Origin: Sarea resinae
Lineage: Eukaryota
Assembly (NCBI GenBank): GCA_026026165.1
Contig: JAPEUD010000062.1
Span: 62,001-126,000, forward strand
Length of the DNA: 64,000 bases
Reading direction: 5' to 3'
Part shown: in pieces, positions 49,610 to 53,589 of the stretch
Numbering within the stretch: the first letter of the stretch is position 1
Layout: each line of letters opens with the position of its first letter
Translations under genes and position numbers: made by a program
The notes under the pieces: model-generated
Seen by the model: only the letters and a program-made list of their open reading frames with translations
Databases searched by the model: none
Told to the model about the DNA's origin: nothing

Positions 49610-50441
49610 GATTGGACCCGATCGACGCGCCCGTCTGAGGAGAACCGGAGCGTGAAGTCTCGCGCAAGTGGATAGGAATATCGAGACTTCAGATCTCAAT
49701 TGACCTGAGCGGTCGTGCGCAACAGTGAGAGGGGGGGGGGCATGAAATGAGGAAGGATGGTCTTGTTCTCGAGGTTCAAACAGTACAGAGAAGTAGTAGT
49801 CCTGAGCTTCGCGATGCGAATCTGTGATGAGAGCTAGAGCAGACCGAGCGAGGCACATCAAGGCAAGCAGGCAAGCAGGCAAGCATCGAGGTATCTGTGA
49901 CAGGTAGGTTCCCAGTACTTGTCCCTCACGCGAGATCGCCGGCGGATCGAAGTAGTCACTACGAACGCGTACAGAGTCTTGGCAGGTCTCTTCTCGCACG
50001 ACACCTGGGCAAGCTTCAGTACTCATACTCCGGAGTATACAGTGGAGTGGCATCTTTACAGGACTGTCCCTCATCTCTGCCGCATGCCCTACTGAAGAAA
50101 TCATATAGCACCGCCTGAAGACTGTAATAACGAGAATTGCCCGTGGTTCTTTCCGTTCCAGCACAACGAGAGACGAACAGGAGGCCAGCAGATAGCGCCA
50201 TGACCCTGGTAGCGAGCACTGGGCAGCTCCCCCCTCGACCCCCGCCGGCTGCCATCTTCGGTCGTCATGGGTGAACCATTAGTACTCGTGCCTCCAGTGC
50301 GCAACCTACTCTGTAAATTGTTGGCCTGTCGACTCAAAAGCGTCCTCCCCACCTGTATAGAAGTTCTCCTGATCTCCCGACTGTCCATAGAGTGAGTAGT
50401 GTCTAGCTGGATACTCAGAAGAACCCCCCCGTGCATACAAT

Positions 50442-51509
50442 ATGCGGTTACGGCTGCGGGATCCCACAGGGTCTTCCACATTGTCTCTCGCCGAGTCCGC
50501 AACCGTGGCGGAGCTCCACAACCAGATCACATCCAAGACGTCAATACCGTCGTTCGACCTCAAGTATGGTTATCCTCCGAAACCCCTCTTGCTTGAGGAC
50601 TACGGCCCCGCCACGCGATTATCTGATCTACAAGTGAAGCTCGACGGAGAGCAACTCATCGTGAGCGCTCGTGGAGATGCAGCAACCCCACGTCCGTCGC
50701 AAGCACAACAACAGCCGGCCAAGTCCTCATCAACTTCATCATTCTCCTTCGCTGGCGCCCCCGCTGGAGAATCAATAGCGCCATCCTCCTCGTCGTCGTC
50801 GTCGGCGACCAGACCACTCTCCCTCTCGCGCAAGCAAACTCCATCCCTCGAATCCGATCCTCCGGAGCTCCCAGTCCCTACCCATGGCGGTACCCTAACA
50901 CTTCGAATAATGCCCGACGACAACTCCTGCATGTTCCGCGCCTTCGGCAGCGCCATGCTCGGCTCCCTAGACAGCATGCACGAGCTCCGGTCTCTGATCG
51001 CACAGACGATCCAAGAGCAGCCGGATGTCTACACGCGCGCGATCCTCGAACAAGCCCCCGACGACTACTGCGCCTGGATCCAGACGCCGGATGCCTGGGG
51101 CGGCGGCATCGAGCTCAGCATCCTGAGCGCCCACTTCGACATCGAGATATGCAGCATCGACGTCCAGACGCTGCGCGTCGACCGCTTCAACGAGGGGAGA
51201 CCGACCCGCTGCATCCTCGTGTACTCGGGCATCCACTACGACACCATTGCGCTGTCGCCCTCGGATCCGCCCTACTCGCACGCTTACGCGCCGCCGGAAT
51301 TCGACACCAAGGTCTTCGATGCCGCCGACCAGATCATCCTCGACCAGGCCGTGGAGGTCTGCAGAGTGCTGCAGGGACGGCACTACTTTACGGACACGGC
51401 AGCCTTCACGATCAAATGCAACACGTGTGGCGGGCAATTCAAAGGAGAGAAGGGCGCCACGGAGCATGCGAAGCAGACGGGTCACTACGATTTCGGAGAG
51501 GCCGAGTAG
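50442..51509 (+). CDS. OTU1: Ubiquitin thioesterase Otu1/YOD1 (UBX-like, OTU, C2H2 finger), intronless
   Basis: MRLRLR...LKYGYPPKPL UBL; catalytic MPDDNSCMF; WGGGIEL; YSGIHYD; C-terminal C..C...HAKQTGH zinc finger. Confidence 0.93.
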   Translation: MRLRLRDPTGSSTLSLAESATVAELHNQITSKTSIPSFDLKYGYPPKPLLLEDYGPATRLSDLQVKLDGEQLIVSARGDAATPRPSQAQQQPAKSSSTSSFSFAGAPAGESIAPSSSSSSSATRPLSLSRKQTPSLESDPPELPVPTHGGTLTLRIMPDDNSCMFRAFGSAMLGSLDSMHELRSLIAQTIQEQPDVYTRAILEQAPDDYCAWIQTPDAWGGGIELSILSAHFDIEICSIDVQTLRVDRFNEGRPTRCILVYSGIHYDTIALSPSDPPYSHAYAPPEFDTKVFDAADQIILDQAVEVCRVLQGRHYFTDTAAFTIKCNTCGGQFKGEKGATEHAKQTGHYDFGEAE

Positions 51510-51843
51510 AGAGAAATTATCTCTAGGTTATAGAGATATCGAGCGACCGAACCACACCAGCAGGATGTTTCAGGATAGGACACATAGCGGGATTCGCTGT
51601 CGGCCAGGCCTCAATAAACATATGAGATATTTCTCTTCATCTTCCATACCGAAAACCTACTGAGTAGACAGTCTACCTGCCTTCCAATTATTATTGTCCT
51701 CTGCCTACCTTAAGTCGGGCAGTATACGCAAATGACGTACGTCCTCGCAATTCAACATCAAGGTACCTTGTAGCGACGGGAGGTAAGGTATGTGTAAAGT
51801 ACCTAGCTGGAGAGTCACCCACCAACAGAGGTGTGGTCCCGAA

Positions 51844-51875
51844 TATAAACCAAGTGCTTGCGCTAGTTCAGTTGG
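51844..51875 (+). promoter_or_regulatory. TATA box (TATAAA) and A-box-like TAGTTCAGTTGG upstream of/overlapping U5 5' end
   Basis: TATAAA at 51844-51849. TAGTTCAGTTGG at 51864-51875 matches the tRNA A-box consensus TRGYNNARYNGG. Confidence 0.55.
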
Positions 51876-52006
51876 AGTGGCTCGGATATCATAAGAACTC
51901 GCCTCTTGCCTTTTACCAGAAGCGACCTGAATCCGGCCGAAGTACTCCACTATTACAAATCTTTGGAACCCACATTATTCTTACCTTATATGGTAATAAT
52001 ATTTTT
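51872..52006 (+). ncRNA. U5 spliceosomal snRNA
   Basis: Invariant loop 1 GCCTTTTAC (51908-51916) closed by TCGCCTCT/AGAAGCGA. Outer stems CGGAT/ATCCG and TGGAGT/ACTCCA. Sm-like site AATCTTTGG (51958-51966). 3' hairpin ATTATT..TTACC/GGTAA.TAAT. Ends are approximate. Confidence 0.88.
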
Positions 52007-52027
52007 GGATGGGCGAGAGGCGTGTTC

Positions 52028-52065
52028 GTTCGATCCACGAACTTCTCTTTATTTCTTTTTTTTTT
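52028..52065 (+). promoter_or_regulatory. B-box-like GTTCGATCC followed by T10 (Pol III-type terminator)
   Basis: GTTCGATCC at 52028-52036 lies in the hairpin GTTCGT/ACGAAC. The T10 run is at 52056-52065. Confidence 0.5.
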
Positions 52066-52652
52066 ATTGTTTTGTCTGCACAGGACAAACATACTTCTAG
52101 AGGAGGAGGGGTTCTCAATGGTTAATGTGGCTTGCCAAGTGTTGAAGGCTTCCTTCTCCCGAGGGCACGTCGACGGTTTTGTGACCAAGTGCGAGATATA
52201 CCACCACTACCACCACCGCCGAGTAGACAAGACACAGGAGATACAAAAATGATCTACGGGTTTTAGAGCCGCGGCCGCGTCTAGTTTGAGCGTCAACGCC
52301 AACTGAACGTGAACTATAGAGTATCTTTTGTTTCCTTCGCAAAGCTACGTATGCTACACGTATGTGAAATAATAAAGGTAAAGAACAAAAAAAGAGGAAT
52401 GAATATGCTGAAATATGTTTGAGATAGATGAACAGCAGAAATGGAAACAGATGGTCGGGCATGTATGCGTTGCTGTGTTTCGCTGCACTGTGCTGTGCTT
52501 TGCGTCCGTGAATCGTAGCTCATTGAAAACGTATGCCGATAACACCAAAGGTCATATACAAGAAAAACCGCAAAAGGGGCGTCCAAGCCCTCTGCTCGCA
52601 GGTTCTAAGGTGAATTACCCTCAGCTGTTCGAGACCACTGCGCTGATGGCTA

Positions 52653-53589
52653 CTAGTTCAGCATTCCCCAATGCTGCTCGGCATCGAAAGCTCCCGGCTG
52701 CTTCCAGTCGTCATCAAAGGCGTTGAACAGCACGAGACTGGACGAGAAGTTCTCCCTCAGCGAATCGATAGCTGCCTGCTGGTTCTCAACGGACGGGATT
52801 GCGGCTCCGTTTGTCTGTCCTTCCTTCGGCCATCCGCTCTCCGTAATGACGGTATGCTTACGATTGCAGGCCAAGCTGACCTGCTGCGCCTGGCTGAGGA
52901 CATACGCGCCGGCCTCGGAAGCAGAGACATCCGACGCAAAGAAGGCGTGGCAGTTCGCGGCCGCGTAATCTGACGCGAGACAGAGCTCGGGGTTGTTGAT
53001 GAGCGCGTCGAAGGTGTCGACTGTGACGACGGGACCGGCGTAGCCTGCTGCGCGTAGGATGGCACGGGCCGTGTTGACGGCATTGACGACATCCGCGGAG
53101 CTAGCGGTGCCAGCATTTACAAGTTCGTTTCCGATGCCAATCGTGTCAACGGTGCTCCACGAGCCCGAGCAGGCGGAGATGATGGTATTGAGTTCCGACT
53201 CAAGCTGAGTGATGTCGTAGACGCCGGTGAAGAGCTTCATGTCTTTGGCTTGGCTTGCAGCGAGCACGTTCGATACTTGGTCACAATCTGTGCCATAGAT
53301 ACGGACAGAGCTGTAGCCCGTTATTTGCTCAAAGTCAGCCGTGACCTGGTCTTGAGATTTGCAGCTCCCGTCAGAGTTGTAAGGCGAGTAAGTGATGCCG
53401 TAGCCGGATTGCATCTCGGCGCCAGTTGCACTGCGGGGTTGATGATGGTGGTGGTGATGCTCTGCGCGTGCTTGTAAGAGATTGCTTCCAGCCAAGGAGA
53501 TATATTTGACCCTGCTTACTGTGGGGCTGCGCTGCGGCCATCTGCAATAAGCCAAGAATGCCCATAGCGGCGAAGAGACCAGTCTTCAT
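52653..53589 (-). CDS. Secreted GH17 beta-1,3-glucanase/glucanosyltransferase (Scw4/Scw11/BtgE-like), 2 exons
   Basis: Signal peptide MKTGLFAAMGILGLLQMAAAQP, GITYSPYNSDGSCKS...VRIYGTDCDQ, acid/base IGIGNELVN, AANCHAFF, nucleophile VITESGWP. No GPI tail. Confidence 0.88.

What the first reader, a model, noticed from the sequence alone, without database searches (positions are those of the whole stretch)
51844..52065. U5 snRNA gene with a complete RNA polymerase III promoter/terminator architecture
Seen: U5 (loop 1 GCCTTTTAC) is preceded by TATAAA (51844) and a perfect tRNA-type A box TAGTTCAGTTGG (51864-51875). It is followed by T5 (52002-52006), a B-box core GTTCGATCC (52028-52036) and T10 (52056-52065). 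The Sm site reads AATCTTTGG, so the usual U-run is broken by a C and no run longer than T4 occurs in the snRNA body. Known: Sm-class snRNAs (U1/U2/U4/U5) are Pol II products in model yeasts and animals. TATA + A box + downstream B box + oligo-T is the layout of yeast U6 (SNR6), and trypanosomes transcribe U-snRNAs with Pol III. Inference: this lineage may make U5 with Pol III, perhaps as a leader/trailer-bearing precursor, and the C in the Sm site would avoid premature Pol III termination. That would raise the question of how its 5' cap is formed. I do not know whether this has been reported for filamentous fungi.
Basis: partly seen in the sequence, partly recalled or inferred. Interest (0 to 1): 0.75.

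Follow-up and report, generated by a model that had tools for sequence, protein, structure and literature searches.

The report
U5 snRNA gene, Pol III-like flanks
This is a genuine gene for the U5 splicing RNA of an ascomycete fungus; its tail signals (a hairpin, runs of T, a tRNA-promoter-like word) recur in related fungi and resemble RNA polymerase III genes, but sequence alone cannot show which polymerase reads it.

Summary

I compared the window with 34 non-redundant environmental U5 loci.
- Conserved: an A/T-rich TATA box about 30 nt upstream, a body with no T5, an Sm site that never has T at the interrupted position (0 of 45), and a hairpin followed by T5, mostly T5G. That T-run lies 21-44 nt after the Sm site in 33 of 33 loci.
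- Further T-runs follow on the sense strand: 95 T-runs against 2 A-runs.
- A B-box-like word, GTTCRANNC, lies within 100 nt after the Sm site in 22 of 35 loci. Background is 0.02 per 101 nt.
- The "perfect A box" occurs only in the window (1 of 35). It straddles the predicted start site and is best read as chance.

Coding-strand T-tracts are a published Pol II termination signal at mammalian snRNA genes, so the T-runs do not identify the polymerase.

My reading is a Pol II U5 gene with a hairpin/T-tract terminator (about 0.5). A TATA/B-box Pol III gene is a live rival (about 0.25). I could not obtain fungal U1, U2 or U4 loci, and there are no occupancy or cap data.

The parts
51815..51828 (+). 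TCACCCACCAACAG, a possible upstream promoter word 16-29 nt before the TATA
   Evidence: Read. Similar CACCCAC..CAAC words lie about 20 nt upstream of the TATA in L010, L022, L028 and L031. Only 6 of 35 loci match a loose pattern, and I did not test this further.
51844..51849 (+). TATA box (TATAAA), 27 nt before the Rfam 5' end
   Evidence: TATAWA lies at the same distance from the loop word (-68..-51) in 20 of 35 loci, against 17 of 1,666 background 18-nt windows. In 30 of 35 loci there are at least 7 pure A/T bases at that place.
51864..51875 (+). A-box-like word TAGTTCAGTTGG, judged a chance match that overlaps the U5 5' end and stem I
   Evidence: Present in 1 of 35 loci (the window only); background is 0.022 per 71 nt. 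It straddles the Rfam 5' end at 51871. The relaxed pattern occurs 32 times in the window.
51871..51994 (+). U5 snRNA by the Rfam model; the true ends are not mapped
   Evidence: RF00020, 53 bits, gathering score 40, model positions 1-117.
51908..51916 (+). Invariant loop 1, GCCTTTTAC, holding the only T4 of the body
   Evidence: One T4 at this place is the only T4 in 34 of 35 loci.
51958..51966 (+). Sm site AATCTTTGG, with its U-run broken by C
   Evidence: Across the window plus 44 loci the word is AATCTTTGG in 40, ATTCTTTGG in 4 and AATATTTGG in 1. None has T there, although the search pattern allowed any base.
51976..52001 (+). A/U-rich 3' hairpin that ends directly before the T5
   Evidence: RNAfold MFE -5.5 kcal/mol for 51967-52001. 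A hairpin directly before the first T-run is predicted in all 33 loci folded.
52002..52007 (+). T5 followed by G: the primary termination or 3'-end signal
   Evidence: The first T-run of 5 or more lies 21-44 nt after the Sm site in 33 of 33 loci. The base after it is G in 28, A in 4 and C in 1.
52027..52037 (+). B-box-like word CGTTCGATCCA, lying in the loop and arms of a small hairpin (52024-52042)
   Evidence: It scores 17 of 19 on a recalled B-box consensus; the chance of such a best hit in 101 nt is 0.046. The region does not fold better than shuffles (z -0.59). L005 has AGTTCGATCCC at the same distance (+63).
52056..52065 (+). T10, a back-up T-tract
   Evidence: Relatives carry 95 T-runs of 5 or more on the sense strand against 2 A-runs in the 150 nt downstream.

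Best explanation
This is a genuine, independently transcribed U5 spliceosomal snRNA gene of an ascomycete, lying in the roughly 760-bp gap between two convergent protein genes.

Shown:
- The unit has a TATA box 27 nt before the RNA start.
- The body holds no T-run longer than the invariant T4 of loop 1.
- The Sm site has its U-run broken by C.
- An A/U-rich 3' hairpin is followed at once by T5G, then a T10.
- The hairpin plus T5G, the further sense-strand T-runs and the non-T Sm position are conserved in all comparable environmental U5 loci. They are therefore functional 3'-end signals and not chance.

Inferred, about 50%:
- RNA polymerase II transcribes the gene, as in every fungus where snRNA transcription has been studied (recalled knowledge).
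- It stops by DNA-directed termination at the hairpin and T-tract, leaving a U-tailed precursor that is trimmed back to the Sm core.
- The Sm site avoids T5 because a stem-loop followed by T5 would mimic the terminator.
- The A-box-like word is a chance by-product of U5 stem I.
- The B-box-like word in the window may be chance, or a TFIIIC or RNA-level element. Its counterpart in relatives is real but unexplained.
For: - U5 identity: Rfam, 53 bits.
- Intergenic position: RNA contigs of a metatranscriptome run cover 51302-51656 and 52416-52700 but not the U5, with ORFs at 50400-51509 (+) and 52653-53585 (-).
- Conservation in 35 non-redundant loci (the window plus 34; 30 of the 34 reach the Rfam U5 cut-off): first T5 at +21..+44 in 33 of 33; no T5 in any body; TATAWA at the fixed distance in 20 of 35.
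- Strand bias: T-runs of 5 or more downstream number 95 on the sense strand against 2 A-runs, while upstream the counts are 12 against 9.
- G follows 61 of the 95 T-runs, although G is the rarest base there.
- A hairpin is predicted directly before the T-run in all 33 loci folded.
- Published basis for Pol II: mammalian Pol II terminates at coding-strand T-tracts at snRNA genes, independently of Integrator cleavage (PMC11610936, abstract and passages). Yeast and calf Pol II terminate spontaneously at T-tracts, and earlier work cited there found termination at some T-tract terminators only with an upstream hairpin (PMC7615648, passages).
- Yeast La binds Pol II snRNA precursors that end in UUU-OH (PMC1904278, introduction).
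- A. fumigatus U5 is 99 nt as cDNA and about 100 nt on northern blots (PMC2377427, passages). This fits trimming of a 3' trailer.
- A box: 1 of 35 loci.
Against: - A B-box-like word has no role in a plain Pol II model, yet it is strongly enriched just after the Sm site: GTTCRANNC in 22 of 35 loci against 0.021 expected per 101 nt, and GGTTCRANNC in 18 of 35 against 0.008.
- The word is kept in three different hairpin registers. It is the centre of a palindromic hairpin in 13 of 24 loci and lies outside that hairpin in 11 of 24. This points to a constraint on the word itself.
- A TATA at -30, a T5-free body, a T5 followed by a purine and back-up T-runs are also exactly what a Pol III gene looks like.
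- TATA-driven Pol III units without A or B boxes exist in Neurospora (PMC3547838, passages).
- No data on the cap, polymerase occupancy or transcript ends were available. The one RNA run laid does not cover the U5.
Confidence: 0.5

Rival explanations
1. U5 in this fungus, and in the many relatives that share the layout, is transcribed by RNA polymerase III from an SNR6-like or fission-yeast-like promoter. The TATA box places TFIIIB. A B-box bound by TFIIIC, lying in the 3' trailer or just beyond the terminator, supports assembly in chromatin. T5G terminates, with back-up T-runs behind it. The Sm site and the whole body avoid T5 so that the polymerase does not stop early. The U-tailed trailer, promoter word included, is trimmed off.
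For: - One idea explains all the conserved features: TATA at -30 (20 of 35 loci), no T5 in the body (35 of 35), 0 of 45 Sm sites with T, including one with A in place of C (L040), first T5 in 33 of 33, 95 T-runs against 2 A-runs, and G after the T-run.
- The B-like word is enriched about 30-fold and is kept whatever the local hairpin.
- L027 matches the consensus in 19 of 19 weighted positions, and L005 has the word after the T-run at +63, as the window does at +60.
- If mature U5 is about 100 nt as in A. fumigatus, the word lies in a discarded trailer. From recall, yeast RPR1 and snR52 likewise carry their boxes in a discarded leader.
- Neurospora has TATA-dependent Pol III units with poly-T terminators.
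Against: - No A box is conserved (1 of 35). The window's own A-like word is placed wrongly for a TATA-directed start.
- The B-like word is absent or weak in several of the non-group-A lineages, grouped with the window by eye: L013, L018 and L024 have none, and L003 and L015 score 15 of 19. In the window the word is at chance level on its own (p 0.046).
- In 13 of 24 loci the word is part of an RNA hairpin with compensatory changes, so part of its conservation is structural.
- The first T-run is a minimal T5 in 27 of 33 loci, and the invariant loop holds a T4.
- T-tracts also stop Pol II at snRNA genes.
- The prior is low: from recall, Sm-class snRNAs are Pol II products in all fungi, animals and plants studied. 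A Pol III U5 would also lack the m7G cap needed for trimethylation.
- My searches found no report of it.
Confidence: 0.25
2. Pol II transcribes U5, but the B-box-like word is a real TFIIIC site with no Pol III attached, like the 'extra TFIIIC' sites of yeasts. It would act as a boundary or roadblock that confines this very active small gene between two convergent genes.
For: - The word is enriched and kept independently of hairpin register.
- In the window and in L005 it lies about 20 nt beyond a T5, where a bound factor could stop polymerases that read through.
- The gene sits in a tight gap between convergent genes.
- TFIIIC-only sites and roadblock termination are known from budding and fission yeast (recalled, not checked here).
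Against: - In most relatives the word lies 13-24 nt upstream of the T-run, inside the transcribed trailer (counted by eye). That is the wrong side for a roadblock.
- It is missing in several lineages.
- There are no binding data.
Confidence: 0.1
3. The GGTTCRA word works at the RNA level. A small T-arm-like hairpin in the 3' trailer would be a recognition signal for a processing or chaperone factor that makes the mature 3' end, and its likeness to a B box would be incidental.
For: - In 13 of 24 loci the word is the centre of a 6-bp hairpin with compensatory pair changes: G-C to A-T at pairs 2 and 3, with pairs 5 and 6 varying freely.
- The distance from the word to the T-run is fixed at 14 nt in most loci with the commonest U5 body, although the letters between vary (counted by eye).
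Against: - In 11 of 24 loci the same word lies outside that hairpin.
- In the window and L005 it lies beyond the T5, so it may not be transcribed.
- I know of no factor that recognises such a hairpin on snRNA precursors.
Confidence: 0.1

Closest known systems
U5 spliceosomal snRNA (Rfam RF00020)
   Same: It matches the full covariance model at 53 bits. It has the invariant loop 1 GCCUUUUAC, a long 5' stem-loop, a single-stranded Sm site and a 3' hairpin.
   Different: The Sm word is AAUCUUUGG where the Rfam consensus has AAUUUUUGG. All 44 environmental relatives found also lack U at that position.
Yeast U6 gene SNR6 (Pol III: TATA at -30, weak intragenic A box, T-run terminator, B box downstream of the terminator; layout recalled, not checked here)
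   Same: TATA about 27-30 nt upstream, a body free of T5, a T-run at the 3' end, and in the window and L005 a B-box-like word shortly after the terminator.
   Different: The A-like word starts 7 nt before the start site, not about 20 nt after it, and it is not conserved. In most relatives the B-like word lies before the T-run. U5 is an Sm-class RNA. Polymerase occupancy is unknown.
T-tract (DNA-directed) termination of Pol II at mammalian snRNA genes (Davidson et al. 2024, PMC11610936) and in yeast (Han et al. 2023, PMC7615648)
   Same: Coding-strand T-tracts just downstream of a short, highly transcribed snRNA unit, with several in a row.
   Different: Here the first tract is a minimal T5 placed directly after a hairpin and followed by G. 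There is no Integrator 3' box, and fungi lack Integrator (recalled). The human snRNA bodies themselves hold T5-T6 Sm sites (recalled).
Trypanosomatid U-snRNA genes (Pol III, dependent on A and B boxes of a divergent upstream tRNA-like gene; recalled)
   Same: This is the precedent for Sm-class snRNAs made by Pol III with tRNA-type boxes outside the mature RNA.
   Different: No upstream tRNA or tRNA-like gene is present. ARAGORN finds none in the window or in the 34 loci. The box-like word is downstream, in the same orientation.
Neurospora milR-1 (TATA-dependent Pol III unit without A or B boxes, poly-T terminator; PMC3547838)
   Same: It is from a filamentous ascomycete and has a TATA plus a T-run as its only recognisable signals.
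   Different: milR-1 is a lineage-specific small-RNA precursor shown by inhibitor and ChIP to be a Pol III product. Nothing of that kind exists for U5.

Membership tests
U5 spliceosomal snRNA (RF00020) | Covariance-model score at or above the curated gathering score | tested here: met
   53.0 bits against 40, full length 1-117.
U5 spliceosomal snRNA (RF00020) | Invariant loop 1 GCCUUUUAC on top of stem I | tested here: met
   51908-51916, aligned to the loop of the model.
U5 spliceosomal snRNA (RF00020) | Sm-binding site between stem-loop I and a 3' hairpin | tested here: met
   AAUCUUUGG at 51958-51966 is aligned to the model's AAUUUUUGG. The 3' hairpin is at 51976-52001. The variant word is shared by 40 of 45 loci.
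Pol III gene with tRNA-type or SNR6-type promoter | A box inside the transcribed region, about +8 to +25 from the start (recalled definition) | tested here: not met
   The word at 51864-51875 starts 7 nt upstream of the Rfam 5' end and 20 nt after the TATA. It occurs in 1 of 35 loci.
Pol III gene with tRNA-type or SNR6-type promoter | B box (GGTTCGANNCC) within or downstream of the gene | tested here: inconclusive
   The window has CGTTCGATCCA at +60 after the Sm site, scoring 17 of 19 with p 0.046 per 101 nt, at chance frequency in the window. In relatives the word is present in 22 of 35 loci against a background of 0.021, but absent in L013, L018 and L024. Binding was not tested.
Pol III gene with tRNA-type or SNR6-type promoter | Oligo-T terminator at the 3' end and no such run inside | tested here: met
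   T5 at 52002-52006 and T10 at 52056-52065, with no T5 in the body. The same holds in 33 of 33 relatives. This feature is not specific: Pol II snRNA genes also end at T-tracts.
Pol III gene with tRNA-type or SNR6-type promoter | Occupancy by Pol III, TFIIIB and TFIIIC; transcript with a 5' triphosphate and a 3' oligo-U | not testable with these tools
   No ChIP data or raw RNA reads over the gene were available. The RNA run laid does not cover it.
Pol II Sm-class snRNA gene | m7G cap hypermethylated to trimethylguanosine; Pol II occupancy | not testable with these tools
   No data were available. The A. fumigatus paper gives U5 sizes only (99 and 100 nt) and nothing on caps.
Pol II Sm-class snRNA gene | Same flank design in the U1, U2 and U4 genes of the same genome | not tested
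   No genome is held for the window or for the metagenome contigs. The U2 scans returned no loci identifiable as fungal.

The most novel reading that the evidence does not exclude
In a broad set of ascomycete fungi, U5 would have switched from RNA polymerase II to RNA polymerase III, whether alone among the Sm-class spliceosomal RNAs or together with them. It would use a TATA box, a TFIIIC-type B box hidden in a discarded 3' trailer or just behind the terminator, and a T5G terminator. The C in the Sm site would be the scar of that switch. This would be the first Pol III-made Sm-class snRNA outside the trypanosomatids, and it would mean these fungi build a U5 snRNP without the usual m7G/trimethylguanosine cap pathway.
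Probability: 0.25. Interest if true: 0.85.

Novelty: new variant of a known kind. Interest (0 to 1): 0.5.

Why it matters
Which polymerase makes an snRNA decides its cap, its 3' end, its chaperones and its assembly route. Outside the trypanosomatids, Sm-class snRNAs are treated as Pol II products.

The comparison shows that many fungal U5 genes share a tight 3' module: a hairpin, T5G, more T-runs and a tRNA-promoter-like word. They also share an Sm site that never carries a full U-run. I found no paper describing this, though my searches were limited.

Two outcomes are possible. Either Pol II uses a compact, bacterial-style terminator at fungal snRNA genes, or U5 has moved to Pol III. Standard tools in Neurospora or Aspergillus can tell them apart: Pol III inhibitor, ChIP and anti-cap immunoprecipitation.

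Tried and rejected
- **Sequencing runs.** One search gave 4 runs. When laid, the RNA metatranscriptome run covers only the flanks and not the U5. Two DNA runs of other organisms match only 31-33-nt pieces, one of them a 32-nt stretch of the U5 loop region. All are contigs, so they give no ends or levels and no evidence either way.
- **U2 as a Pol II comparison.** A 23-nt U2 motif gave 0 hits in viral contigs and 86 stretches in prokaryote genome contigs. The 25 I printed look like animal or protist host contamination of MAGs and not fungi, so I dropped them.
- **Earlier findings of this scan.** Six look-ups returned nothing that bears on this.
- **tRNA origin of the boxes.** ARAGORN finds no tRNA in the window or in 34 loci. 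I rejected the idea of a tRNA, tRNA remnant or linked tRNA-like gene.
- **Hairpin around the window's B-like word.** It exists, but the region folds no better than shuffles (z -0.59).
- **Literature.** Four searches for U5 plus Pol III, TFIIIC, fungi or trimethylguanosine and one for the Sm word found nothing relevant. Xue et al. 2000 and Maraia & Intine 2002 are not held. The A. fumigatus supplement with the U5 structure is a PDF I could not read. It may show the true 3' end.
- **Taxonomy of the environmental loci.** Their 500-nt flanks hold no usable coding sequence. That they are fungal is inferred from U5 similarity only.

Full report
**1. What is in the window**

- TATAAA at 51844-51849
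- TAGTTCAGTTGG at 51864-51875
- loop 1 GCCTTTTAC at 51908-51916
- AATCTTTGG at 51958-51966
- T5 at 52002-52006
- GTTCGATCC at 52028-52036
- T10 at 52056-52065

Rfam's U5 model (RF00020) matches 51871-51994 on the + strand. The score is 53.0 bits against a gathering score of 40, over the full model. It is the only Rfam family found in the 64 kb. ARAGORN finds no tRNA.

The gene lies in a low-GC gap (0.44-0.46) between two convergent ORFs, 50400-51509 (+) and 52653-53585 (-). Contigs of a wood-decay metatranscriptome run cover 51302-51656 and 52416-52700 at 95-99% identity, but not the U5 itself. A 1,123-aa SMC protein of the window is nearest to a cluster whose known members are mostly Ascomycota. 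"Ascomycete" is therefore reasonable. I did not narrow it further.

**2. Chance within the window**

The two box words are common. GTTCRANNC occurs 18 times on both strands against 18.27 expected. TRGYNNANNNGG occurs 32 times against 22.92 expected. Finding one of each near a gene that a reader is inspecting is weak evidence, so the question had to go to relatives.

**3. Relatives**

The pattern was CTTGCCTTTTACCAGAAG, a gap of 20-50 nt, then AWTNTTTGG. It leaves the interrupted Sm position free.
- It returned 44 loci. By shared 12-mers these collapse to 34 non-redundant loci, or 35 with the window.
- Rfam calls U5 at or above its cut-off in 30 of the 34. The four misses are L007, which is cut at the Sm site, and L009, L020 and L038, which share one divergent U5 type.
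- By eye the 35 fall into roughly eleven U5 body types. I built no tree, so counts of loci are not counts of independent events.
- The sample is limited to lineages that share the loop-flank word and an Sm site of that shape.
- That the contigs are fungal is inferred from U5 similarity alone. Their flanks hold no usable coding sequence.

**4. What is conserved**

(a) A TATAWA box lies 51-68 nt before the loop word, about 30 nt before the Rfam 5' ends. It is there in 20 of 35 loci, against 17 of 1,666 background windows. In 30 of 35 there are at least 7 pure A/T bases at that place.

(b) The body has a single T4, the invariant loop, in 34 of 35 loci, and no T5 in any.

(c) The Sm word is AATCTTTGG in 40, ATTCTTTGG in 4 and AATATTTGG in 1 of 45 loci. 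None has T at the free position.

(d) In all 33 loci with downstream sequence, the first run of 5 or more T lies 21-44 nt after the Sm site. A predicted hairpin stands directly before it. The run is exactly T5 in 27 of 33. The base after it is G in 28, A in 4 and C in 1.

(e) More T-runs follow. In the 150 nt downstream there are 95 sense-strand runs of 5 or more T against 2 runs of A (4,937 nt). Upstream the counts are 12 and 9. G follows 61 of the 95, although G is the rarest base there.

(f) A B-box-like word is strongly enriched in the 100 nt after the Sm site. GTTCRANNC is present in 22 of 35 loci and GGTTCRANNC in 18 of 35. The backgrounds are 0.021 and 0.008 per 101 nt in the rest of the same loci, on both strands.

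The window fits (a) to (e) exactly. Its 3' hairpin is at 51976-52001 (-5.5 kcal/mol), followed by T5G and later by T10.

**5. What is not conserved**

An A-box-like word (TRGYNNA, 2-3 N, GG) near the 5' end occurs in 1 of 35 loci, and that one is the window.

Its position also argues against function:
- It starts 20 nt after the first T of the TATA and 7 nt before the Rfam 5' end.
- In relatives the TATA sits 29-32 nt before the Rfam 5' end, which predicts a start at about 51870-51875 here.
- A conventional A box lies downstream of the start (recalled).
- Its 3' half, GTTGG, is the start of U5 stem I.

I read it as a chance match.

**6. The B-like word in detail**

In most relatives the word lies before the T-run, inside the trailer hairpin.
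- In 13 of 24 loci with a TTCRA word it is the centre of a 6-bp palindromic hairpin with compensatory changes. G-C becomes A-T at pairs 2 and 3, and the outer pairs vary freely. An RNA hairpin is therefore under selection.
- In the other 11 the same word is kept while the predicted hairpin is built differently. In some the GGG is the 3' arm of an upstream hairpin. In L025 the word spans loop and arm.
- The trailer between the Sm site and the word has diverged completely. This points to a constraint on the word itself.
- Scoring against a recalled B-box consensus: L027 gets 19 of 19, many loci 18, the window 17 at +60 (p 0.046 for a best hit in 101 nt), and L005 18 at +63.
- L003 and L015 get only 15. 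L013, L018 and L024 have nothing.

The window-type arrangement, with the word about 20 nt after a T5, therefore recurs once, in L005. It is missing in L005's nearest U5 relatives. For the window alone the word may still be chance.

**7. Which polymerase**

A TATA at -30, a T5-free body, T5 followed by a purine, back-up T-runs and a B box are how a Pol III gene looks. Neurospora has TATA-dependent Pol III units without A or B boxes (PMC3547838, passages).

Several points weaken that inference:
- Mammalian Pol II terminates directly at coding-strand T-tracts at snRNA genes, independently of Integrator cleavage (PMC11610936, abstract and passages).
- Purified yeast and calf Pol II terminate at T-tracts. 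Earlier work cited there found that some T-tract terminators stop Pol II only with an upstream hairpin (PMC7615648, passages).
- Yeast La binds Pol II snRNA precursors that end in UUU-OH (PMC1904278, introduction).

The T-runs therefore do not discriminate. Neither does the C in the Sm site. In a lineage whose terminator is "hairpin plus T5", a T5 a few bases after stem-loop I would mimic the terminator for either polymerase. The same Sm word also occurs in two non-fungal U2 genes picked up as contaminants (L058, L121).

A. fumigatus U5 is 99 nt as cDNA and about 100 nt on northern blots (PMC2377427, passages). If that U5 is built like the commonest type here, the hairpin and T-run lie in a trailer that is trimmed off. 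This fits both models.

The one feature that Pol II does not explain is the B-like word. Against it stand the low prior for a polymerase switch, the absence of an A box, and the absence of the word in several lineages. I put Pol II with a hairpin/T-tract terminator at about 0.5 and Pol III at about 0.25. The remainder falls to a TFIIIC-only site or an RNA-level signal.

**8. Is it known?**

I found no paper linking U5 to Pol III or TFIIIC in fungi. The searches were on full text of the held library, and for trimethylguanosine and Aspergillus. The library lacks most subscription journals, so this is not proof of absence. The conserved 3' module of fungal U5 genes is, as far as these searches go, undescribed.

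**9. What I could not do**

No fungal genome is held, and the U2 scans returned nothing identifiable as fungal.
- No raw RNA reads cover the gene.
- The A. fumigatus supplementary figure with the U5 structure could not be read.

**Verdict**

The U5 call is certain. The "complete Pol III architecture" is half right. The terminator-like module, the T5-free body and, in many relatives, a B-box-like word are conserved and real. The A box is chance. The polymerase remains open, and standard experiments can settle it.

Noticed in passing
window 51815-51828: TCACCCACCAACAG lies 16-29 nt upstream of the TATA. Similar CACCCAC..CAAC words sit about 20 nt upstream of the TATA in L010, L022, L028 and L031, so this may be an upstream snRNA promoter element. 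Only 6 of 35 loci match a loose pattern.
   Followed up: partly
L010, L016, L019, L022, L023, L025, L028 (about 65-80 nt upstream of the U5 5' end): By eye, a shared CTCGCT(T) block upstream of the TATA in loci with the commonest U5 body type. It could be a second promoter element.
   Followed up: no
L045-L124 (prokaryote genome contigs): A U2 snRNA motif hits 86 stretches in MAGs labelled as bacteria. These include tandem arrays with a period of about 1.4 kb on contigs of a 'Hormoscilla' MAG, and arrays in sponge- or fish-associated MAGs. This is eukaryotic host DNA binned into bacterial genomes.
   Followed up: partly
L058 and L121 (U2 genes on contigs of a MAG labelled Dehalococcoidia): These non-fungal U2 genes carry the same C-interrupted Sm word, AATCTTTGG, so the variant is not peculiar to fungal U5.
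   Followed up: no
33 U5 loci, 150 nt downstream of the Sm site: Runs of 5 or more T are followed by G in 61 of 95 cases, often as TTTTTGC repeated two or three times (for example L010, L025), although G is the rarest base there. The repeated unit looks like a motif in its own right, not just a T-run.
   Followed up: partly
window 51894-51925 versus run X3 (organism B): A DNA contig of another organism from the same study matches only 32 nt of the U5 loop region (2 differences) and runs on into unlike sequence on both sides. This shows how fast the outer stems of U5 diverge.
   Followed up: no
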